Positions 1 to 50,048 of a DNA stretch of 50,406 nucleotides are shown here, piece by piece. The position numbers were made by a program, and so were the translations under genes. Source of the DNA: an uncultured Candidatus Peribacteria bacterium (GTDB taxonomy: Bacteria > Patescibacteriota > Gracilibacteria > BD1-5 > JAGOOR01); NCBI GenBank assembly GCA_964630285.1, contig CAZVRL010000002.1:1-50406 (forward strand), read 5' to 3'. The notes beneath the pieces are model-generated. The model worked only from the letters and a program-made list of their open reading frames with translations. It ran no database searches and had not been told where the DNA came from. How positions within the stretch are numbered: the stretch's first letter is position 1; each line of letters opens with the position of its first letter.

Positions 1-268
1 CGCCTCAAGCATGAGCCTCCTCTTGCGAGGGCCAACTCACTTGCACCGCCGAGGGTTTTCCACTTGCGTATGTTACCATGCACAATTGTGAGCTCTTACC
101 TCACTCTTTTCACCCTTACCTACCGAAGTAGGCGGTATAGTCTCTGTGGCACTTTCCCGTCCTGATTGCTCAGGAGGCAGCCGTTAGCTGTTCGGTTTTA
201 TGGGGATTACTCCCCTATAGTGTCCGGACTTTCCTCTGTAGATTGCTCTACAGCACATATCTCCTTGG
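1..268 (-). ncRNA. rnpB: RNase P RNA (bacterial type A), 5' portion; the 3' part runs off the window start
   Basis: The reverse complement carries the universal CR-I block GAGGAAAGTCCGG (224-236), preceded by a P3-like hairpin CTGTAGAGCAATCTACAG. It also carries GGGTGAAAAGAGTGAGGTAAGAGCTC (about 90-118), the conserved GGGTGAAA..GGTAAGAGC block. No plausible ORF. Confidence 0.8.
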
Positions 269-292
269 GTTTTTGTATTATGAGATGTTTTT

Positions 293-1748: not shown

Positions 1749-1778
1749 AGGCGAAGTATAAGAAAAAACAAAAAGTTA

Positions 1779-1808
1779 CAAAAAATCCATCAATTGCTTG
1801 ATGGATTC
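1779..1808 (-). terminator. intrinsic terminator after the tRNA-Gly pair
   Basis: On the minus strand, hairpin ATCCATCAA-GCAAT-TGATGGAT is followed by TTTTTTGT. Confidence 0.55.
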
Positions 1809-1819
1809 TAGATTATTAA

Positions 1820-1896
1820 TGGAGCAGACAATGGGACTCGAACCCACAACCTCCGCCATGGCAAGGCGGCGCTCTAGCCAATTGAGCTATGTCTGC
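1820..1896 (-). tRNA. tRNA-Gly (anticodon GCC)
   Basis: Hand-folded cloverleaf. Acceptor GCAGACA/TGTCTGC, D arm GCTC-AATTGGCTA-GAGC, anticodon arm CCGCC-TTGCCAT-GGCGG, T arm GTGGG-TTCGAGT-CCCAT. Discriminator U, encoded CCA. Confidence 0.85.
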
Positions 1897-1910
1897 GTAT
1901 CTGATAGGAT

Positions 1911-1989
1911 TGGAGCGGGGGGCCGGGTTCGAACCGGTACCTCCAAGGGTTGAAGCCTTAGTGCTCTCGCTCATTTAAGCTACCCCCGC
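1911..1989 (-). tRNA. tRNA with anticodon UCA (reads UGA) and glycine identity elements; tRNA-Gly(UCA) of translation table 25
   Basis: Hand-folded cloverleaf. Acceptor GCGGGGG/CCCCCGC, D arm GCTT-AAATGAGCGA-GAGC, anticodon arm TAAGG-CTTCAAC-CCTTG (positions 34-36 = TCA), T arm ACCGG-TTCGAAC-CCGGC. Has G1:C72, C2:G71, G3:C70 and discriminator U73, with encoded CCA. Confidence 0.8.
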
Positions 1990-2029
1990 ACTACTCCACC
2001 TAACAAGGGAGAGTATAGAAAATATTTTA

Positions 2030-3244
2030 TTATTTCAAATTTTTCTCCACGATATACCCAAATTTCTTCTTTCCGACCTGCACAAGCTTCTTTTCCGCGT
2101 TCACCTGAATCATCATCTTTGGATCAGTGACGACGACTTCATCAAGTTTTACACCATTGGAACTGAGAGCATTGCGTGCTTCGGTCGAATTTCCGACCAT
2201 GCCAATTTCGCGAATAAGGGTCACAATAGGATATTCTCCCGCTGGATGCTCGTAGATTTTGATATCCTTATCTTCTGGACGTGCTCCACCAGCGATAGTT
2301 GCTTCGAAATACTTCTCCGCAGAATCGACAGCGTCTGAATCATGGTAGAGTCCGACAATCTCGCGAGCGAGTTTTTTCTTCACATCTCGAGGATGAGCTG
2401 TTTTGAGCTCTTTCTCTATACCGACAATATCCTCCATATCGACAGTCGTACAGCTCTGAAAATAAGGAATGATTTGGTCATCAGGGATTTCCATCACTTT
2501 CACAAACATATCATTTGCTGACATATCGAGAGAGATATAGTTCCCTTTTGTTTTGCTCATTTTCTCACCATCGGTTCCCATAATAAGGTCAAACATCATG
2601 ATATCCTGTTTTTCCATACCATGAGCTTCCATGAGAGTACGACCAGCCAGGAGATTGAAATATTGATCATTTCCTCCGAGCTCCACATCGCATGAACCAT
2701 ATTTTTTCGCAATTGCGACACTATCGTACCCCTGCATCATCGGATAGAGAAATTCCTGGAGACTGATACGGATACCAGCTTTGTAGCGTTTTGAGAAGTT
2801 ATCACGATCGAGCATCTCAGCCACTGAGAAATGCTTCGCGAGTTCCCCTACTCCACAGAAATTCACAGCATCGAGTCATTCACTATTGTAGTAGACTTCG
2901 ACTTTTTTGAGATCGAGAATTTTACCAAAGTATGAGAGATATTTCTCTGCATTTTTGAGTGTTTCTTCACGTCTGAGCATCGGACGTTCTGCATCTTTAT
3001 CGCTACTATCCCCTACTTGCGCGGTCGCATCTCAGATAAGAACGATTATCTCATGGCCGAGTTTTTGAAATTCTCGAAGTTTCAAGATAGGTACAGCGTG
3101 TCCTATGTGCACAATTGGAGCTGTAGGGTCGATACCAAACTTGATTCGAAGTTTTTTGCCACTTTCGAGGCGTTTTGTGAGATTTTTTTCATCGATAATC
3201 CGAGAAACTCACTTGGTGAGGAGGTTTTGAAACTGTTTTATCAT
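2030..3244 (-). CDS. tyrS: tyrosine--tRNA ligase with C-terminal S4-like domain
   Basis: Track ORF 2030..2866 plus an N-terminal part recovered through 3 TGA (3209, 3032, 2876). HIGH motif (PIVHIGHAV), [16 protein letters not shown] (the KMSKS motif). Ends TAA. Confidence 0.9.
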
Positions 3245-6869: not shown

Positions 6870-6946
<77 letters not shown>

Positions 6947-6962
6947 TTGTTTTAGTTAGTGT

Positions 6963-7039
6963 CGGGAAGTGGCGCAATTGGCTAGCGCACTGCGTTTGGG
7001 ACGCAGGGGTTGCAAGTTCGAGTCTTGTCTTCCCGACCA
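6963..7039 (+). tRNA. tRNA-Pro (anticodon UGG)
   Basis: Acceptor CGGGAAG/CTTCCCG. Anticodon arm CTGCG-TTTGGGA-CGCAG, T arm GCAAG-TTCGAGT-CTTGT, encoded CCA. Confidence 0.85.
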
Positions 7040-7087
7040 GATACTATTACATCCCAATTATTACTGAAAATGTAATTTTGGGAACAC

Positions 7088-7162
7088 GGCCCCATCGTCT
7101 AGCGGTTAGGACAGCTGGTTTTCATCCAGTAAATCGGAGTTCGACTCTCCGTGGGGTCACCA
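7088..7162 (+). tRNA. tRNA-Glu (anticodon UUC)
   Basis: Acceptor GGCCCCA/TGGGGTC. Anticodon arm GCTGG-TTTTCAT-CCAGT, encoded CCA. Confidence 0.85.
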
Positions 7163-7171
7163 TTCGCATAT

Positions 7172-7197
7172 AAAAAGAGCTCTCAGGGCTCTTTTTC
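7172..7197 (+). terminator. hairpin plus T-run between tRNA-Glu and tRNA-Ser
   Basis: AAAAGAGC-TCTCAGG-GCTCTTTT followed by T residues. Confidence 0.5.
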
Positions 7198-7205
7198 ATT
7201 AAGAA

Positions 7206-7293
7206 GGAGAGTTCGCATAGCGGTCTAGTGCGCACGCTTGGAAAGCGTGTAAGCTGAAAGGCTTCAGGGGTTCGAATCCCCTACTCTCCGCCA
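7206..7293 (+). tRNA. tRNA-Ser (anticodon GGA), long variable arm
   Basis: Acceptor GGAGAGT/ACTCTCC. Anticodon arm CACGC-TTGGAAA-GCGTG, variable arm AAGCTGAAAGGCTTC, T arm AGGGG-TTCGAAT-CCCCT, encoded CCA. Confidence 0.85.
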
Positions 7294-13793: not shown

Positions 13794-15986
13794 CTAATTC
13801 TTCATTCCCTCAATCATCTGCGGAATAAAGTCTTCGAGACTGATTCAGAGAAGCGTCTCGCAACGTCTGCAGTGTTCACGGCTTACACCAGCTGCAAAGC
13901 CTTTGTCTTTGAGTTTTTTGAGTACTGAAGTAACCTTAACCTCGTCGAGGGATTTATTTGGTGTCATTCTAGAGCATGCCCAGATAAATCCTGAAAGCTC
14001 ATCAGCAGAGGCGAGGTATTTACGTAAATCCGTATCCAGCCCATGCTCTGGGAATTTTTCCTCATAGTGCGAACGAATATCCTCAAGCATTCACTTTGGA
14101 GCATTCATTTCTTCGAGAATTTGGGTAAGTGACTCACCACAATGACGCTCAGCATCTTTTTCGACAACATCCCAATCGACATCATGGAGCACACCGACAG
14201 CATACCAATAATCAGCATTTTTGCCGAGTTTCTGACCAAAATAACGCATACATCGACCCACTGTGAGATTATGATCTTTTGTCGTCGTAGAATATTTTGC
14301 AAGCGTGGCTTCTACTATTGGCAAATCAATATTGATATGAGAGTGTAGGTCATTTTCTTCAGATGATACAGCCTTTTTTCCTGGAGTCTTAACACTGACT
14401 GAAGGTTCAATTTTTGGATTCTTATCTTTCACGAGTGGAAACAAGACAACATCTCGGAGGTTTGGCTGTGCTGTGAGGAGCGCGACGATACGATCGATAC
14501 CCATACCAAAACCAGACTGAGGTGGCATGCCATGCTCCATGGCAGCGACGAAATCATCATCTGGCATAGCTATTTCATCATCTCCCGCCTTCTTTGCATC
14601 GAGTTGTTTTGAAAAACGTTCTTCTTGATCAACAGGGTCTACAAGCTCAGAGTAAGCATTGGTCACTTCCCAACCATTGATGCAGAGCTGAAATCGGTCT
14701 ACTATGCTCGGATTTGTGTCATTGAGACGGGCGAGTGGTGAGAGGACCAGGGGCTGATGGATAACGAAAGTCGGATTGATGATATGCGGTCGAGCTATTT
14801 TCTTATAGAGCTTATCGATAAGCGTTCCGTGCGAGAGTTTCATCATACCATCTATCTGAATACCAGCTTTTTGGATAGCTTTCTGGAGTTTTTCAAGCGT
14901 ATTTTCCTCGTAGATATTGATATCAGAATGTTCTTGAATTAAATCACAAATAGAGCGTCGTGGCCATTTCCCTGAAAAATCCACCGTATGCTTCTCCCCT
15001 TTTGAATTAATGATTTCGACTTTCTTGTTTCCGTCCATGAGTTCATCTATAATGTAACCAAACATGCGCTCCGTGAAATCCATATTATCCTCATAGTTCC
15101 AGTACACAGCATAGTGCTCAACGGAGGTAAACTCTGGAAGATGAGATGGGTCGAGGCCTTCATTGCGGAAAGACTTCCCTATTTCAAAGACTTTTTCCAT
15201 ACCACCAACTGTACACTTTTTGAGTGATGTTTCAGGTGCGATACGGAGGTACAGATCTGAATCAGTTGCCTCATGGTGTGTTGTAAATGGATGAGCGAGG
15301 GCCCCAGAAGCACTATTTCCAAGAGTAGGAGTCTCTACTTCGATAAATCCCTCGCGGTAATAAAATTCACGAAGTTTCTGGACAAATCGAGAACGGAATA
15401 CCATGCGATCATATGAAGTTTTCTCAGTAATCATGTCGAGATACCGTTTTCGGTAGATAGTTTCCTCATCAGCGAGTCCGTGAAATTTTTCTGGAAGTGG
15501 GAGAAATGCTTTTGAGAGAAGCTGAAACGAGCGAACAAAGACAGTCAATTCACCTTTATGCGTCATAAATAACTCACCATGAATACCGATAATATCTCCT
15601 CGGTCGATATATTTTTCAAAAATTTTAAATGGTTCCGCGGCTTCCTTTCCTATTTCACGCAATTCCCCACCATCTTGTGATAGAAGACAAAAATCCTTCG
15701 AAAGAGCAAACTGAATCTGCCCAGAAAAGTCCTGAAGTGTACCAAATATGAGCTTCCCGAAGCTACGAACGAGCATGATACGTCCAGCAGTATGTATTTC
15801 GTTTCCCGGCTCGGGAATAATCTCATCAATAGATCGAAATGTCTGTTTTTCTGATTTTTTGCGAATAACGCCTATATCCTGTTTTTTATGAAATCTATCA
15901 GGATACAGCTTGACTCCGAGGGCTCGAAGTGCATGGAGTTTTTGAAGACGAACTGAACGCTCGTCGTGTGGGTCTGGAGAAGTCAT
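13794..15986 (-). CDS. lysS: lysine--tRNA ligase (class II) fused to a C-terminal HD-superfamily hydrolase domain
   Basis: Track ORF 14091..15986 (631 aa, no stop of any kind) already runs from the LysRS core (OB fold, FRNEG, GxGIDR = GMGIDRIV, VLFPLVK) into the first half of an HD domain (VGVLHDVDW). The domain continues through TGA 14091 and 13845 (ELSGFIWACSRMTPNKSLDEVKVTSVLKKLKDKGFAAGVSRE). Ends TAG 13794-13796. Confidence 0.85.
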
Positions 15987-30993: not shown

Positions 30994-31069
30994 GCCGCGA
31001 TAGCTCAGATGGTAGAGCGCATCCATGGTAAGGATGAGGTCACGGGTTCAATTCCCGTTCGTGGCTCCA
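30994..31069 (+). tRNA. tRNA-Thr (anticodon GGU)
   Basis: Acceptor GCCGCGA/TCGTGGC. D arm GCTC-AGATGGTA-GAGC, anticodon arm CATCC-ATGGTAA-GGATG, T arm ACGGG-TTCAATT-CCCGT, encoded CCA. Confidence 0.85.
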
Positions 31070-31244: not shown

Positions 31245-32030
31245 ATGACATCAAGAATTCCCGACATACACGAGGTAAGCCGAGCGCTCTGATATGAACC
31301 AGAAGAGACGGGTTTTCGCGATTTAGGCGAATGATTTGCGTCTTATAGAACAGAAGAAGCAAAAGATTTACACAAGATAGATGTATGAGAAGAGTGGTCG
31401 ATTGCAACAGTGCGGGAATTAGTACAGTTCAGAATAGCAGCACTAGAGAAATCCCTTGAAGTAAACCAAATTGAACTAAGAGATTTATGAAGTGGTGAAA
31501 AATTAAAAGAAAGAGTACGAGAAAAATCTAGCTCCATAGTAAGTAAGCTGTGACCAGTGTGGACAAAGCGATTCAATACAAGAACTGCAACAGTAAAAAA
31601 ATGAGAAGAAGTTGTAGTGGTAGATGTAGACGAGAAAAAATTTAAAGACCCTTCTTCTCTTGATTATTCAAAACTTGTTGATGGGGGTGCTCAATTTAGA
31701 GATGTGGAAAAAATGGGTAATATATATAGTAGGATACCTTTATCAGTATATATGGCTGCCAAGTGAGGAAACCGCTCTATATTAGAACTCTACGCACATC
31801 CAGTAGTCATCGCACTTATACCAGATGAAGCAGAAAGAAATAAATACCTGTCAGCATTAGGAGTACTTGATTTACAAGACAATTTTGAACTCTGATCTCA
31901 ATCGATTTGGGTACCTGCATGATTCGCAAATAACTGAGGAAGATTTTATGCACTCGGTAGAAAAGCAGATTCATACTATCCGCCAAACAACTCAACAAAA
32001 TACATGGAGCTATTGCTCCATAAAAAGTAG
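31245..32030 (+). CDS. hypothetical protein, UGA-rich
   Basis: A 261-codon frame verified codon by codon from ATG 31245 (AAAAGGAG 31223-31230 upstream) through 10 TGA to TAG 32028-32030. It is invisible in the standard-code track. No family recognised. Confidence 0.55.
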
Positions 32031-32498
32031 TTAACGAACTTGACTTAATTCAACCGCGACAGCTCTCTGAGTGTCGCGTTTTTTTATCACTTCTCGTTTA
32101 TCATATTCTTTGCGACCTTTAGCTAGGGCCACAGATACTTTGACGAGATTTCATTTAAAATACACACGAGTAGCGATGAGCGCCATACCTTTCTCCCCTA
32201 CTTTTTGTTCTAGTCGGAGCATGACGTTCTTTCGAAGAAAGAGTTTTCTCGCACGTTTTACGCCTACATCAGCATCTTCTGCGAATTTATAAGGACTCAC
32301 GTGCATACCGAGAATCTGAGCAACGCCTCCGCGTATAGTTACATGACTTCCCTTCAGTTGAGCTCACATCTCACGCATACTTCTGACTTCCCAACCAAAA
32401 AGCTCAATTCCAGCCTCATGCTCCTCAATTATCTCATAATCAAAGAGTGCTTTTTTATTATTCGCGATTTCGGAGGATTTTTTAGTTTTATTTACCAT
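32031..32498 (-). CDS. smpB: SsrA-binding protein
   Basis: 155 aa through 2 TGA. Motifs [29 protein letters not shown] and [25 protein letters not shown]. Ends TAA 32031-32033, directly abutting the stop of the convergent gene. Confidence 0.85.
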
Positions 32499-33222
32499 TA
32501 TTGATTTCCTCCATTATAGCAGAATGAAGTGCAAAATCTATATGTTTTGTGGTAATTGTTGGCCAATGAGCACGGAAAAAATGAAGAGCTGTATTTGGTC
32601 ACATAAAGCCACCGCTTGTACGATGTCTCCCGTTAGAACCAGCACGAATCATAACATCTGGTTCTCGTAATCAGTTATGTGCCTTTTCAAACGCTTCCCT
32701 ACGAAGAGCAATTTGATTCCCTTCAAAACCGCCTCAAACAAGTAAATCCGCTTGCCTACTAGTCTCTCATTCCTGATCATATCAAAGGGCTAGTGCGCAA
32801 CGGAAAATAGAATTAAATCATTGAGTTTTTTCAGAAATATCTGCCATCAATTCACCAATATCCGGAGGCATCAACGAAGCATCCCCTATCATAAAAACAT
32901 GCGTCTGATTTTGATTTGCTATATCCAAAAGTCGAGGTTTGAATTGACGGAGAAGTTCGTAGAGACCTTTTAGTTCATCTTCTGGTCTTTTTTTGTTCTC
33001 ACGAGAGAGTCACCAAAATGTTACTTCATCAACAACATTAGAGCGTTTTTCTCTTAAATGAAGAAGTGTATCTTCAATTCTTGCAACTCATTCTTTGTGT
33101 CACTCAACAACATGATGCATTTTCACATTTCGGGAAAAACGCCTGTTGCCATCTGGAGTGATAGACATAGATAAAAGTTTTCCGCTATATTCATTGAGTG
33201 CACTTTGAACACCAGGGGACAT
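32488..33222 (-). CDS. uppS: isoprenyl transferase (undecaprenyl-diphosphate synthase family)
   Basis: Frame verified free of TAA/TAG, with 9 TGA. Motifs [29 protein letters not shown] and [15 protein letters not shown]. Overlaps the smpB start by 11 nt. Confidence 0.75.
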
Positions 33223-33287
33223 TCATTTAAGATATACTCATAAATCATCTTTTGCTCATGCAATGTGGTATTTTAGTTTCACAAAAA

Positions 33288-34101: not shown

Positions 34102-35865
34102 TTAATTAAGAATTGCCTTGATTCGTCGAACACCTGCTGATGAAGCTTCTTCTTTCTGGATCTTAAATGTTCCCATTTTCGAAGACTCTTCGACGTGAGG
34201 TCCTCCACAGAGTTCCTCAGAATACGTCACTCCATCATCCCCTACCATCTTGTACACTTTCACTGTTTCAGGATATTTTTCCCAGAAAGCACCGAGAACA
34301 CCACGAGCTTTTGCGTTATCTTTTGGCTCTTCTGCCATGGTGACAGTGAGGTGAGCTTTGAGTGCTCCGTTTACATAGTTTTCAACTGCTACGATTTGCT
34401 CTGGTGTCATCTTTTCCGGATGCGTGAAGTCAAAACGGAGTCGCTCAGGAGTAATATTTGAACCTGCTTGCATCACATGTTCTCCAAGTACTTTTCGAAG
34501 ACCAGCAAGCATCAGGTGACATGCTGTATGAAGAGAAATCGTGACATCGCTATGATCTGCAAGTCCACCCTTGAACATACCTGCCGAAGCCGTACGAGAG
34601 AGGTCTGCGTGGGCTTTCATGGCTTCATCAAAATCAGTCTGGAAATTTGATGGTAAATTTCATCCATTGATAACTATTTCTTCTCGAATCATCTCCACAG
34701 GGAGACCGTATGTTTCAAAAAGACGAAAAGCTTCTTTGCCATCAATAGTTTGAATTTTTGAGAGTTCTCGAAGTCCATTCTTAATAGTCTTCTGAAACTT
34801 ACTCTCTTCCATCGTGATTTCATCGATAATCACTGTTTCATTATTTTTTACAGACTCATACACATCTTGATAGATATGAATAAAGTCACGCGCCACTTGT
34901 GCGAGACAAGCGTCTTCATGCCCCATCTTGTGTGCTTCACGAATAGCTCGGCGGATGAGTCGACGGAGGACATAGCCGCGATCAGTATTACTTGGTTTCA
35001 CTCCATCAGCAATCATATGGACCGCTGTGCGGAGATGATCGGCAATTATACGAGCGCCTCTTTCATTGTAATTATTTTCTCCGACTATACGCTTGATATG
35101 TTCAAGTGTATTTATGAAAAAATCTGTATCGTAGGTTGTTTTTTTACCATTGATAACGGCGAGTGTTCGCTCAAGACCCATCCCTGTATCGACATTTTGT
35201 GCTGGGAGGGATTCAAGTGTCCCATCAGCTTTTTTATTAAACTGCATGAAGACATTATTCCAGATTTCCATCCATTGTTTTGAGTGTGTTCCTTTGTTTC
35301 CTTGTGGCTGCCCTTCCCCTACCCAATAAAATATCTCGGTATCAGGACCACATGGACCTGTGGGACCAGCAGCCCACCAATTATCCTCTGCTGGGAGATA
35401 AGCAATTCGTTCACGAGGCATGCCGAGACTGACCCAAATATCAGCACTTTCTTCATCACGTGGAGCATTTGCGTCACCTTCAAAAACTGTGACTGAAATC
35501 ATCTTTGGATCAAGCCCGAGCCAATCAAGTGATGTGAGAAATTCCCAACTCATCTCAATCGAACCGCGTTTGAAATAATCACCGAGAGACCAGTTACCGA
35601 GCATCTCAAAAAATGTATGGTGTGTGTCATCCCCTACATCATCAATATCTCCTGTTCGTACGCATTTTTGTACATCAGCAAGACGTGTTCCCATAGGGTG
35701 TCTTTCGCCCAATAAATATGGAACAAGTGGTTGCATGCCAGCTGTGTTGAAAAGAACAGAAGCGTCGTTTTCAGGAACGAGCGGAGCTGATGGAATGATG
35801 GCGTGATTTTTTGAACGGAAAAAATCGAGGTACTTCTGACGAAGTTGAGAAGATGAGATTTGCAT
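34102..35865 (-). CDS. alaS: alanine--tRNA ligase, short form (catalytic, tRNA-binding and editing domains; no C-Ala domain)
   Basis: Track ORFs 34660..35865 and 34102..34620 share one frame, joined by TGA 34660. Motifs FFRSKNH, FNTAGM, FEMLGNWS and DTGMGLER. Editing-domain motifs HTACHL and CGGPHV. 587 aa. Confidence 0.9.
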
Positions 35866-47848: not shown

Positions 47849-49621
47849 ATGTCAGAACTCTCTACAAAGCGCCACTCGCTTTCCCACATTATGTCCCAGG
47901 CAATTGCCGCGACATTTCCAGACCTCACTATCCTCCGTGGTGTCGGTCCTGCTATCGATAATGGTTTTTATCAGGACTACGATTTCGGTGATTTCCAACT
48001 CACGGAAGCACATCTCAAGGACATCGAGAAAAAGATGAAGCATATTTTGAAACAAAATCAGCTCTTTGTTCAGAGCTTCCTGACACTTGAAGAAGCTCGT
48101 ACGAAATTCGCTGGCGATAAATACAAACTCGAACTGATAGCAGATTTAGCAGCTGAAGGAGAAACACAATTCGGTGTCTACACAAATACACTTCAAAATG
48201 GTACTGTCACATACGATGACCTCTGTGCTGGTCCCCACGTAGAGAAGACAGCAGAGCTTGATGAAAATGCATTTCAACTCGACAGAATCGCTGGTGCCTA
48301 CTGGAGAGGTGATGAAAAAAATAAAATGCTCACACGAATCTATGGTGTCGCATTTGAATCTCGCGAAGAGCTCGACGCGTACAACAAACAAATGGCAGAA
48401 GCAAAAAAGCGAGATCACCGTATCCTCGGTGCGAAACTCAATCTCTTTACACTCTCACCCCTTGTAGGTTCTGGACTACCCCTCCTCAAGCCAAATGGTA
48501 TGATTATCCGTAAGGAAATAGAAGACTATCTCTGGTCACTCCACAAGGATCACGGCTATCAGAGAGTCTGGACTCCACATATCGCAAAAATCGAACTCTA
48601 TGAAACTTCTGGCCATGCTGCGAAATTTGGACATGAACTTTTCCGTGTGAAGGGTGGTCATGGAGAGGATTTCTGTATGAAACCGATGAACTGTCCTCAC
48701 CACATGCAAATCTTTGCAGATAATCAGTGGAGCTATCGTGATATGCCGATTCGTTACTTTGAGCCAGCAACAGTCTACCGTGACGAGAAACCAGGACAAC
48801 TCTCAGGACTCACTCGTGTCCGAGCTATTACTCAAGACGATGGACATCTCTTCCTCCGTGTCTCACAGATCAAACAAGAAGTAGGAACAATTGTTTCTAT
48901 CATAAAGGAATTTTATACGACACTTGGAATGGTTGAAGATTATTGGGTTTCACTCTCAGTCAGCGATCCAGCAACACCAGATAAATATCTTGGCGGCAAA
49001 GAAGTATGGGATACAGCAGAATCATCACTCGAAGAAGCAGCGAAACAATTTAATCTCCCATACAAGAGAATCGAAGGTGAAGCAGCGTTTTATGGTCCTA
49101 AACTCGATTTCATGTTCAAGGATGCGATTGGTCGTCAATGGCAGCTCGCTACTATCCAGCTCGACTTCAATCTCCCAAATAGATTTGATTTGAGTTATGT
49201 GAATGAGCAAGGTGAAAAAGAACGTCCAGTTGTTATCCATCGTGCTATTTCTGGGTCACTTGAGCGTTTTATGGGCGTTATGATCGAACACTTTGCAGGT
49301 ATCTTCCCTCTCTGGCTCGCACCTCGTCAGGCTATCGTCGTACCAGTCGGTGAAAAATTCAACGACTACGCTGAGAAAGTCCTCAAATCACTCAAAGACG
49401 CTGGCATCCGTGCTGAAGGAGATTTCTCATCTGATGGTCTCAATAAAAAGGTTCGAAATGCTGAGCAAGCACACATTAACTACATCCTCGTCGTCGGTGA
49501 AAAAGAAGAAGCAAATAACGGTGTCGCTGTACGAAATTACAAGACAAAGGAACAGACAGAAGAATTAGCAGCAGATTTTGTTGCGAGGGCAAAGAAGGAA
49601 ATAGAAGAAAAAAGTCTTTAA
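47849..49621 (+). CDS. thrS: threonine--tRNA ligase lacking the N-terminal TGS domain
   Basis: Intact 590-aa ORF with no TGA at all. Editing-domain HSLSH and CAGPH. Class II motifs (KRDHRILG, FRVKGG..MKPMNCPHH, YRDE, TQDDGH, GEAAFYGPK). The anticodon-binding domain is present. Confidence 0.95.
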   Translation: MSELSTKRHSLSHIMSQAIAATFPDLTILRGVGPAIDNGFYQDYDFGDFQLTEAHLKDIEKKMKHILKQNQLFVQSFLTLEEARTKFAGDKYKLELIADLAAEGETQFGVYTNTLQNGTVTYDDLCAGPHVEKTAELDENAFQLDRIAGAYWRGDEKNKMLTRIYGVAFESREELDAYNKQMAEAKKRDHRILGAKLNLFTLSPLVGSGLPLLKPNGMIIRKEIEDYLWSLHKDHGYQRVWTPHIAKIELYETSGHAAKFGHELFRVKGGHGEDFCMKPMNCPHHMQIFADNQWSYRDMPIRYFEPATVYRDEKPGQLSGLTRVRAITQDDGHLFLRVSQIKQEVGTIVSIIKEFYTTLGMVEDYWVSLSVSDPATPDKYLGGKEVWDTAESSLEEAAKQFNLPYKRIEGEAAFYGPKLDFMFKDAIGRQWQLATIQLDFNLPNRFDLSYVNEQGEKERPVVIHRAISGSLERFMGVMIEHFAGIFPLWLAPRQAIVVPVGEKFNDYAEKVLKSLKDAGIRAEGDFSSDGLNKKVRNAEQAHINYILVVGEKEEANNGVAVRNYKTKEQTEELAADFVARAKKEIEEKSL

Positions 49622-49628
49622 AAATTTT

Positions 49629-50048
49629 ATGCTCGCTAATACCATCCTCGCTGCTGACAATATCATCACCCGATGAAGCTGAGCAAATCAAGAAATATTG
49701 CTCATAAAACGATGACATGATCCATTTCGAGACATGTGGGCTTTTCCTGCAGGCAAAGTCGACACAGATGAAACTATCAAACATGGTGCCCTCCGAGAAT
49801 TGCGAGAAGAGACAGGTATTGTCTTGGAGAATGTAGAATTCTTCTGAATCTACGACAACCCTACTCGTGATCCACGGGGCCGAACAGTCTCTGTCATGTA
49901 CTCTGCTCAAGTACCTGATGATATATCATTTCAGGCAGCAGACGATGCAAAAGAATGTGCATGGTTTCCTATTCACGATTTGCCACCAATGGCTTTTGAT
50001 CATGAACAGGTGATTAAAGATTTTATTGAGAAGAATTGACAAAAATAA
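49629..50048 (+). CDS. NUDIX hydrolase
   Basis: Frame verified through 5 TGA. Nudix box FPAGKVDTDETIKHGALRELREETGI. The last TGA (50037-50039) sits 2 codons before TAA 50046-50048. Confidence 0.8.

What the first reader, a model, noticed from the sequence alone, without database searches (positions are those of the whole stretch)
1779..1989. Dedicated UGA-decoding tRNA (anticodon UCA) with glycine identity, in tandem with tRNA-Gly(GCC)
On the minus strand, a 79-nt tRNA (1911-1989) has the anticodon loop CTTCAAC, so positions 34-36 are UCA and it pairs with UGA. Its acceptor stem begins G1:C72, C2:G71, G3:C70 and its discriminator is U73. That is the bacterial GlyRS identity set apart from C35/C36. 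It sits 14 nt upstream of a canonical tRNA-Gly(GCC) (1820-1896), and one intrinsic terminator (1779-1808) follows both, so the two are probably co-transcribed. They may also be co-transcribed with tyrS, which ends 40 nt upstream. The two tRNAs are not close paralogues. The GCGGGGG acceptor looks more like the usual tRNA-Gly(UCC/CCC) type, suggesting origin by a C36-to-A change (inference). As I fold it, the D-loop (AAATGAGCGA) lacks the adjacent G18-G19 pair and the T stem has an A49-C65 mismatch. If real, these are unusual for an elongator tRNA.
Basis: partly seen in the sequence, partly recalled or inferred. Interest (0 to 1): 0.85.

Follow-up and report, generated by a model that had tools for sequence, protein, structure and literature searches.

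The report
Known glycine tRNA that reads UGA
This is a real tRNA that reads the UGA "stop" codon as glycine in a Gracilibacteria-type bacterium, a genetic-code change already described in 2013, so the finding is correct but not new; the only mildly fresh detail is an unusually long anticodon helix.

Summary
ARAGORN and Rfam both call a 79-nt tRNA at 1911-1989(-) with anticodon UCA. It lies 14 nt upstream of tRNA-Gly(GCC), a hairpin terminator follows both, and tyrS ends 40 nt upstream.

The window only tiles into genes if TGA is a sense codon: 123 in-frame TGAs in 31 genes, and none used as a stop. Of 23 TGA positions alignable to solved homologues, 14 sit opposite Gly, including Walker A loops, and none opposite Trp or Cys. 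Close relatives are Gracilibacteria MAGs with the same gene order.

This is NCBI code 25, published in 2013 and confirmed by proteomics, and the same acceptor-stem rule has been used to call these tRNAs. It is therefore already known.

- The tRNA is not a recent C36A copy of tRNA-Gly(UCC). It is 49-66% identical to the clade's Gly tRNAs, which are 80-88% identical to each other.
- The neighbouring tRNA-Gly(GCC) has A3:U70, so it is not fully canonical.
Covariation supports it, and the second (probably SR1-type) tRNA-Gly(UCA) class has an equivalent one.

The parts
1911..1989 (-). tRNA-Gly(UCA), 76 nt plus encoded CCA. Layout: acceptor 7 bp, D-stem 4 bp, 10-nt D-loop, one junction A, 6-bp anticodon helix, 7-nt loop CUUCAAC, 4 unpaired variable nucleotides, T-stem 5 bp (first pair A:C), U73.
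   Evidence: ARAGORN; Rfam RF00005 at 45 bits; covariation across 18 homologues; identical in relatives.
1951..1953 (-). Anticodon UCA (tRNA positions 37-39 of the gene), complementary to UGA.
1943..1961 (-). Anticodon arm with six contiguous pairs, one more than canonical. It can equally be described as a Watson-Crick 26:44 pair plus one extra junction nucleotide.
   Evidence: The outermost pair is C:G in 16 sequences and U:A in 2; the third pair is A:U in 15 and G:C in 3. The MFE and centroid folds both give the continuous helix. The bulge alternative was tested.
1897..1910 (-). 14-nt spacer between the two tRNAs.
   Evidence: Coordinates. The spacer varies in sequence and is 14-16 nt in most relatives.
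1820..1896 (-). tRNA-Gly(GCC) with encoded CCA. Its acceptor is GCAGACA/UGUCUGC, so it has A3:U70 instead of G3:C70.
   Evidence: ARAGORN; Rfam 69.6 bits; sequence comparison with L005, L127 and L141.
1776..1809 (-). Intrinsic-terminator-like hairpin (12 bp, GCAA loop) followed by a T-tract.
   Evidence: -13.8 kcal/mol, z = -4.7. The stem sequence differs but the hairpin and T-tract are kept in L004, L008, L010 and L103. Not flagged by the consensus scan.
2012..2038 (-). Conserved TTGAAA (2033-2038) - 15 nt - TATACT (2012-2017), a possible promoter for the tRNA pair. It overlaps the last two tyrS codons and the stop codon.
   Evidence: Conserved in 9 aligned loci; L087 has TTGAAA-N15-TATAAT in a different upstream sequence. 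The scan tool only allows 16-18 nt spacers. Function is inferred, not shown.
2030..3244 (-). tyrS (404 aa from MIKQFQ..., with in-frame TGA codons, TAA stop).
   Evidence: Pfam tRNA-synt_1b, 1.2e-67; 84-96% identical orthologues with the same downstream tRNAs.

Best explanation
The gene at 1911-1989(-) encodes the tRNA-Gly(UCA) of a bacterium that uses genetic code 25, a Gracilibacteria-type member of the Patescibacteria/CPR. The tRNA is charged with glycine by GlyRS through its acceptor-stem identity set (G1:C72, C2:G71, G3:C70, U73, with C35 retained). It pairs with UGA through anticodon U34-C35-A36, so UGA is a fifth glycine codon and not a stop. It is made together with tRNA-Gly(GCC) from one short transcription unit that ends at a shared hairpin terminator, and RNase P (its RNA is in the same window) and 3' processing release the two tRNAs. 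What is shown: the gene, its fold, its conservation, UGA used as a sense codon at glycine positions, and the absence of UGA stops. What is inferred from published work on the clade: glycylation by GlyRS, loss of RF2, and the processing route.
For: The tRNA is called by two independent methods. Allowing TGA as a sense codon raises long-ORF content 2.5-fold and gives a 91% coding tiling in which almost every gene has in-frame TGAs and all stops are TAA or TAG. In 31 credible genes TGA occurs 123 times, which is 13.7% of Gly codons, and 0 of 31 stops are TGA. Against solved structures from standard-code organisms, 14 of 23 alignable TGA positions are Gly. These include both ComM Walker A glycines, the ClpC Walker A glycine, GlmS Gly-3 and the FtsW GxGG/GxG motif; none is Trp or Cys (P about 2e-10). 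Orthologous tyrS loci are labelled Gracilibacteria MAGs and carry the same tyrS - tRNA(UCA) - tRNA-Gly(GCC) order. Covariation supports all four helices. The terminator hairpin is stable and covaries. The literature establishes UGA=Gly with a tRNA-Gly(UCA) in SR1 and Gracilibacteria, including proteomic evidence, and uses the same identity rule.
Against: No aminoacylation or expression data exist for this particular tRNA. C36, a GlyRS identity element in E. coli and Thermus (from my own knowledge), is replaced by A36. The tRNA scores lowest of the window's tRNAs against the general tRNA model because of its non-canonical D-loop, the A:C pair and the extra anticodon-stem nucleotide. Nine of the 23 TGA positions align to non-Gly residues (D, H, S, A, V, P, R, R, L), all in variable regions. 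RF2 loss, GlyRS type and the Trp tRNA set could not be checked, because only this window and short related loci were available.
Confidence: 0.92

Rival explanations
1. It is a tRNA-Trp(UCA) and the genome uses code 4 (UGA=Trp), as in Mycoplasma and several insect endosymbionts.
For: It has the same anticodon. Gene callers often choose code 4 for such genomes, and Kantor et al. first recovered their SR1 scaffolds that way.
Against: None of the 23 aligned TGA positions is Trp and 14 are Gly, in invariant glycine motifs. The discriminator is U73 and the first pair is G1:C72, whereas Trp identity is G73 with A/G1:U72 (rule as quoted). UGG is used separately, at a similar frequency.
Confidence: 0.01
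2. It is a selenocysteine tRNA, as ARAGORN labels it.
For: ARAGORN labels it 'tRNA-SeC'. It reads UGA and has a six-pair anticodon helix, a feature tRNA-Sec also has (from my own knowledge).
Against: It has a 7/5 acceptor/T arrangement, a 4-bp D-stem with a 10-nt loop, only 4 unpaired variable nucleotides and U73. tRNA-Sec has 8/5, a 6-bp D-stem, a long extra arm and G73. There are 123 in-frame UGAs in 31 ordinary genes, at glycine positions. The ARAGORN label derives from the anticodon only.
Confidence: 0.005
3. It is a low-efficiency opal suppressor (or a mobile or phage-derived suppressor) in a genome that otherwise uses the standard code.
For: Sporadic canonical-looking tRNAs with a Gly acceptor and a UCA anticodon do occur on contigs of ordinary composition (L137, L163, L167) and on viral contigs (L200, L201).
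Against: No gene in the window stops at TGA, nearly all contain it, and it lies in catalytic motifs of essential proteins. The tRNA sits in a conserved chromosomal position next to tyrS in 8 genomes.
Confidence: 0.02
4. The unusual architecture means the gene is a decaying pseudogene, and another, unseen tRNA does the UGA decoding.
For: It has the lowest covariance-model score in the window, an A:C mismatch in the T stem and no G18-G19 doublet.
Against: The sequence is invariant across genomes whose TyrS differs by 4-16%. Compensatory changes occur in all four helices across 18 homologues. The A:C pair occupies a position that is G.U in most homologues. GAG in the D-loop is invariant. No other UCA tRNA type was found in TGA-sense contexts apart from the distinct class B.
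Confidence: 0.02

Closest known systems
tRNA-Gly(UCA) of Gracilibacteria (GN02/BD1-5), genetic code 25 (Rinke et al. 2013; Hanke et al. 2014; Shulgina & Eddy 2021)
   Same: Same anticodon, same Gly acceptor identity set with U73, same codon meaning (UGA=Gly, demonstrated here), and the same lineage according to the titles of the closest genome records.
   Different: Nothing that I can show. I could not read Rinke 2013, so I cannot say whether its cloverleaf already shows the six-pair anticodon helix. This window's sub-lineage has A:C where most homologues have G.U at the first T-stem pair, and GCUU/GAGC where they have ACAU/GUGU in the D-stem.
tRNA-Gly(UCA) of SR1/Absconditabacteria (Campbell et al. 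2013), probably my 'class B'
   Same: UCA anticodon, G1:C72/C2:G71/G3:C70/G4:C69, U73, a 10-nt D-loop, a U13.G22 pair closing the D-stem, C32 and C38, and six contiguous pairs in the anticodon arm. The review records that the D and anticodon arms diverge from canonical tRNA-Gly.
   Different: Only 60-63% identical to the window's type. Class B has GG in the D-loop, G37 where the window has A37, no inserted nucleotide (its sixth pair is 26:44), no encoded CCA, and a different genomic neighbourhood, a Tyr/Ala/Arg/Glu tRNA cluster. Assigning class B to SR1 is an inference from sample origin and; I did not test it.
tRNA-Trp(UCA) of Mycoplasma and code-4 endosymbionts
   Same: A dedicated UCA tRNA turns UGA into a sense codon, accompanied by loss of RF2.
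   Different: The amino acid is Trp; the identity elements differ (G73); and that tRNA is a close paralogue of tRNA-Trp(CCA) whose reading of both UGA and UGG is harmless. Here, wobble reading of UGG would put Gly at Trp codons (noted).
tRNA-Sec and tRNA-Pyl (natural stop-codon decoders)
   Same: Both read a stop codon and have a six-pair anticodon stem. tRNA-Pyl also lacks the G18-G19 doublet and has a short variable loop (my own knowledge; extended stems in tRNA-Pyl and mt-tRNA-Ser appear among the hits).
   Different: This tRNA is an ordinary elongator charged by a standard synthetase. It has a 7/5 acceptor/T arrangement, no long extra arm, a normal two-nucleotide 8-9 connector and a large rather than small D-loop. 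The resemblance is a lead, not evidence of relatedness.

Membership tests
Code-25 tRNA-Gly(UCA) | Anticodon UCA in a valid cloverleaf | tested here: met
   ARAGORN; Rfam 45 bits against a gathering score of 29; covariation.
Code-25 tRNA-Gly(UCA) | G1:C72, C2:G71, G3:C70 and U73 (the rule used by Shulgina & Eddy 2021) | tested here: met
   Sequence; these positions are invariant in 18 homologues; rule quoted.
Code-25 tRNA-Gly(UCA) | In-frame UGA codons of the same genome fall at conserved glycine positions | tested here: met
   14 of 23 are Gly, 0 Trp, 0 Cys against PDB homologues.
Code-25 tRNA-Gly(UCA) | UGA is not used as a stop codon | tested here: met
   Of 31 credible genes, 25 stop at TAA and 6 at TAG. 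This covers the window only.
Code-25 tRNA-Gly(UCA) | Host belongs to Gracilibacteria/Absconditabacteria (GTDB class JAEDAM01) | tested here: met
   The closest tyrS loci (84-96% aa identity) are titled Candidatus Gracilibacteria MAGs, or auto-labelled 'Peribacteria'. No phylogeny was built.
Code-25 tRNA-Gly(UCA) | Release factor 2 (prfB) absent from the genome | not testable with these tools
   Only 50 kb was available. I saw no RF gene when reading the translated ORFs of the window, and only 10 proteins were scanned with Pfam. The closed relative OZ246415.1 could not be fetched whole.
Code-25 tRNA-Gly(UCA) | Glycylation by the cognate GlyRS | not testable with these tools
   This needs biochemistry. 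It was reported for SR1 by Campbell 2013, as summarised.
tRNA-Sec | 13-bp acceptor/T domain (8/5 in bacteria), 6-bp D-stem, long variable arm, G73 | tested here: not met
   7/5 arrangement, 4-bp D-stem, 4 unpaired variable nucleotides, U73.
tRNA-Trp(UCA), code 4 | G73 discriminator and UGA at conserved Trp positions | tested here: not met
   U73; 0 of 23 TGA positions align to Trp.
Recent C36A derivative of resident tRNA-Gly(UCC) | Higher similarity to the clade's tRNA-Gly(UCC) than to other tRNAs | tested here: not met
   61-64% identity to Gly(UCC) of L120, against 47-64% to non-Gly tRNAs. Gly(UCC) and Gly(GCC) are 80-88% identical to each other.

The most novel reading that the evidence does not exclude
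Both tRNA types that decode UGA as glycine have extended the anticodon helix to six contiguous pairs, while the GGN-reading glycine tRNAs of the same genomes keep the ordinary five pairs plus a non-Watson-Crick 26.44. The Gracilibacteria type (class A, this window) does it with an inserted pair. Class B, probably SR1, does it with a Watson-Crick 26:44. Both also carry C32/C38. The novel reading is that this is a functional adaptation of a sense-recoded UGA decoder. For example, it could stiffen the anticodon arm so that U34 does not wobble onto UGG (Trp). That would mirror the 4-bp-stem tRNA-Trp(CCA) that gains UGA reading, and it would parallel tRNA-Sec and tRNA-Pyl. Because the two classes are only about 60% identical, it could also mean that the UGA=Gly tRNA arose twice or was replaced.
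Probability: 0.2. Interest if true: 0.55.

Novelty: already known. Interest (0 to 1): 0.22.

Why it matters
As it stands, the finding matters mainly for annotation. The window must be translated with table 25; under table 11 nearly every gene is broken, and ARAGORN's 'tRNA-SeC' label is wrong. The biology (UGA=Gly via a dedicated tRNA-Gly(UCA) in Gracilibacteria and SR1) has been established since 2013. What could matter, if confirmed, is the structural point. Anticodon-stem length is now known to tune UGA reading: a 4-bp stem lets tRNA-Trp(CCA) read UGA. Here a cognate UGA decoder that must avoid UGG carries a conserved longer helix. That gives a concrete mutational test of how code-25 organisms keep UGA (Gly) and UGG (Trp) apart.

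Tried and rejected
(1) The consensus terminator/promoter scan found neither the hairpin nor a minus-strand promoter. Direct folding and comparative alignment showed the hairpin is real, and the candidate promoter has a 15-nt spacer, outside the scanner's range.

(2) Campbell 2013 (PMC3619370) and Rinke 2013 are not in the held library. I could not compare with the published cloverleaves and relied on secondary descriptions.

(3) Rfam's reading of the anticodon arm (five pairs plus a bulged U) was tested against the six-pair model. Both keep pairing. The six-pair model explains the joint C29U/G47A change and is the thermodynamic optimum. However, that covariation is probably a single event in two close sequences, so I treat it as favoured, not proven.

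(4) Canonical-looking UCA tRNAs with Gly acceptors (L137, L163, L167) were checked as possible evidence that code 25 works without the long helix. Their contigs are short, of ordinary GC content and compatible with code 11, so they are uninformative.

(5) A viral-collection scan anchored only on the class A anticodon arm and T-loop, meant to remove the circularity of forcing a GCGGR acceptor, found nothing. The link between this arm and the Gly acceptor therefore rests on a pattern that required the acceptor.

(6) CGG-to-Trp reassignment, reported for some Gracilibacteria, was checked and not seen here.

Full report
**Observation.** ARAGORN reports seven tRNAs in the window. Two are on the minus strand: one at 1911-1989 with anticodon tca, and tRNA-Gly(gcc) at 1820-1896. 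ARAGORN calls the first 'tRNA-SeC', but that label follows from the anticodon alone. Rfam's general tRNA model matches both. It scores the UCA tRNA at 45.0 bits (gathering score 29), the lowest of the seven, and Gly(GCC) at 69.6 bits.
- acceptor GCGGGGG/CCCCCGC
- U73 discriminator and encoded CCA
- anticodon loop CUUCAAC
- a 10-nt D-loop, AAAUGAGCGA, without adjacent GG
- an A:C first pair in the T stem
- a 14-nt spacer to the next tRNA
- 40 nt between the tyrS stop codon and the tRNA

Rfam has to insert a nucleotide in the 5' strand of the anticodon stem. Read without that constraint, the arm forms six contiguous pairs (C:G, U.G, A:U, A:U, G:C, G:C).

**Which amino acid does UGA encode here?** This decides the interpretation, so I tested it directly.
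- Treating TGA as a sense codon raises stop-to-stop ORF content 2.5-fold. Freeing TAG or TAA has a much smaller effect.
- Under that code the window tiles at 91% coding. Nearly every gene has in-frame TGAs, and every stop is TAA or TAG.
- In 31 credible genes TGA occurs 123 times. That is 13.7% of glycine codons, about as frequent as UGG. None of the 31 stops is TGA.
- I aligned four proteins, with TGA written as X, to solved structures from standard-code organisms: ComM 8rxd, GlmS 4amv, FtsW 25hr and ClpC 6em9. Of 23 alignable X positions, 14 are Gly and none is Trp or Cys.
- The Gly positions include both ComM Walker A glycines, the ClpC Walker A glycine, the Gly after the catalytic Cys of GlmS, and the FtsW GxGG/GxG motif.
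- The other nine positions (D, H, S, A, V, P, R, R, L) lie in variable segments.
- With a Gly background of 8%, 14 or more of 23 has a probability of about 2e-10.

UGA is therefore glycine, and the window uses genetic code 25.

**Whose genome is it?** A tyrS-based scan of one genome per species found twelve loci whose TyrS is 84-96% identical. They are titled Candidatus Gracilibacteria MAGs, or auto-labelled 'Peribacteria'. One is a closed 1.05-Mb chromosome, OZ246415.1. The next tier drops to about 45% identity. Eight of these loci hold the same tyrS - tRNA(UCA) - tRNA-Gly(GCC) order. Their UCA tRNAs are identical to the window's, except for one double change that keeps a T-stem pair intact.

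**What is known.**
- UGA=Gly with a dedicated tRNA-Gly(UCA) was described for SR1 (Campbell 2013) and Gracilibacteria (Rinke 2013).
- Proteomics confirmed it in a BD1-5 bacterium, and Kantor 2013 found it again in closed SR1 genomes.
- A 2015 review records that RF2 is lost and that the SR1 tRNA's D and anticodon arms diverge from canonical tRNA-Gly.

The finding is therefore a correct re-identification of a known system.

**Wider comparison.** In contexts where TGA is a sense codon, it returned two classes of UCA tRNA.
- Class A: 76 nt, 17 distinct sequences, the window's type. CCA is always encoded and the genomic neighbours vary.
- Class B: 74 nt, 10 distinct sequences. CCA is never encoded, and the gene lies in a conserved Tyr/Ala/Arg/Glu tRNA cluster. 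I infer that class B is the SR1 type, but I did not test that.

*Class A.* With the window added, class A supports the whole cloverleaf: 99.5% of cells are paired, and eight pairs change on both sides, against 0-1 in the slid controls.
- The D-stem differs from the window's by two double changes: GCUU/GAGC in the window, ACAU/GUGU elsewhere.
- The 10-nt D-loop keeps an invariant GAG.
- The first T-stem pair is G.U in most members, A:U in one, and A:C only in the window's sub-lineage. The 'mismatch' therefore sits at a position that is usually a wobble pair.
- The outermost pair of the six-pair helix is C:G in 16 sequences and U:A in 2. The bulge alternative must treat the 3' change as a coincidence.
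- RNAfold gives the continuous helix in both the MFE and centroid structures.
- The two U:A sequences are close relatives, so this is probably one evolutionary event. The six-pair model is favoured, not proven.
- The same structure can be described as a Watson-Crick 26:44 pair, a standard five-nucleotide variable region and one extra junction A.

*Class B.* Class B also has six contiguous pairs, achieved through a Watson-Crick 26:44 (A:U in nine sequences, G:C in one; 100% of cells paired). The GGN-reading Gly tRNAs of these genomes have the ordinary G26.A44 or A26.G44 (sequences). Both UCA classes have C32 and C38. Gly(GCC) has U32/U38, and Gly(UCC) has C32/A38.

**Origin.** Similarity gives this no support.
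- The clade's Gly(GCC) and Gly(UCC) tRNAs are 80-88% identical to each other.
- The UCA tRNA is 49-66% identical to them, hardly above its identity to non-Gly tRNAs (47-64%).
- Class A and class B share only 60-63%.

An ancient Gly origin cannot be excluded, but this is not a recent anticodon mutant of the resident tRNA-Gly(UCC).

**Transcription unit.** The hairpin after tRNA-Gly(GCC) folds at -13.8 kcal/mol (z = -4.7). In relatives its stem sequence changes while the hairpin and T-tract persist. That is good comparative evidence for a terminator, although the simple scan missed it. Upstream, TTGAAA-N15-TATAC(T) is conserved, and L087 has TATAAT. The element overlaps the end of tyrS and may be a dedicated promoter. 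Whether tyrS read-through also contributes is unknown.

**Mechanism.**
- Shown: a conserved, structurally constrained tRNA with anticodon UCA and the Gly acceptor set; UGA used as glycine at a substantial frequency; no UGA stops.
- Inferred from the published work: GlyRS charges this tRNA despite A36, RF2 is absent, and the two tRNAs are released by RNase P (its RNA is at 1-272) and 3' trimming.
- Open: how U34 is kept from reading UGG. The extended anticodon helix and C32/C38, shared by both UCA classes and absent from the GGN isoacceptors, are candidates. This is a hypothesis only.

**Verdict.** The phenomenon is already known. I score interest low (0.22), with a modest residual novel reading about the extended anticodon helix.

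Noticed in passing
window 1820-1896 (-): The tRNA-Gly(GCC) of this lineage has acceptor GCAGACA/UGUCUGC, so it has A3:U70 instead of the canonical Gly identity pair G3:C70. Counterparts in L005, L127 and L141 have GCGGR. This suggests the third pair is not a strict GlyRS determinant here.
   Followed up: partly
window 1-272 (-): Bacterial RNase P RNA class A (116 bits), cut off at its 3' end by the window edge.
   Followed up: no
window 13794-15986 (-): LysRS of 730 aa. The class II core ends near residue 518, and a C-terminal extension of about 210 aa has no Pfam match.
   Followed up: no
window 34102-35865 (-): Short AlaRS (587 aa from MQISSS): catalytic domain plus tRNA_SAD, but none of the C-terminal region of typical ~870-aa bacterial enzymes. 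Kantor 2013 noted unusual or fragmented AlaRS/ValRS in SR1.
   Followed up: no
window, 31 genes: UGA's share of glycine codons varies from 0% to 56% between genes. It is 0 of 42 in ThrRS (47849-49621) and 4% in LysRS and AlaRS. It is 46-56% in UppS (32488-33282), the unannotated ORF 31245-32030 and the NUDIX-like ORF 49629-50048. This could reflect expression level or gene age.
   Followed up: partly
window, CGG codons (e.g. GlmS codon 594, ComM codons 45 and 333): CGG (22 codons) and CGA (142) are in use, and CGG aligns to Arg/Lys in solved homologues. The CGG-to-Trp change reported for some Gracilibacteria is not seen here.
   Followed up: partly
L088, L090, L093, L099, L105, L116, L124, L131, L136, L144, L148, L150, L156, L157, L170 and others: Many tRNA-Gly(UCC)-like genes have a 6-nt anticodon loop, CTTCAA, where CTTCCAA is expected (ARAGORN reports a two-base 'anticodon'). 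They occur mostly in BNJS/BNJT/VOF* assemblies with megabase contigs. These are probably homopolymer deletions in long-read assemblies rather than biology.
   Followed up: no
L200 480-552 (+); L201 7794-7867 (-): Two IMG/VR viral contigs encode canonical-shaped tRNAs with a Gly-type acceptor, U73 and a UCA anticodon. L201 (GC 0.29) doubles its long-ORF content when TGA is a sense codon. These may be phages of code-25 or code-4 hosts, or phage opal suppressors.
   Followed up: partly
L120 (tRNA(UCA) followed at +93 by tRNA-Gly(UCC)); L087, L103, L127, L141 (followed by Gly(GCC)): In class A genomes the UCA tRNA is often followed directly by another Gly isoacceptor: GCC in the higher-GC members, and UCC in an 18%-GC member. 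Tandem linkage with a Gly tRNA therefore recurs, but the partner varies.
   Followed up: partly
window 6870-7293 (+): A tight tRNA cluster, Ile(GAU)-Pro(UGG)-Glu(UUC)-Ser(GGA), with a separate tRNA-Thr(GGU) at 30994-31069.
   Followed up: no
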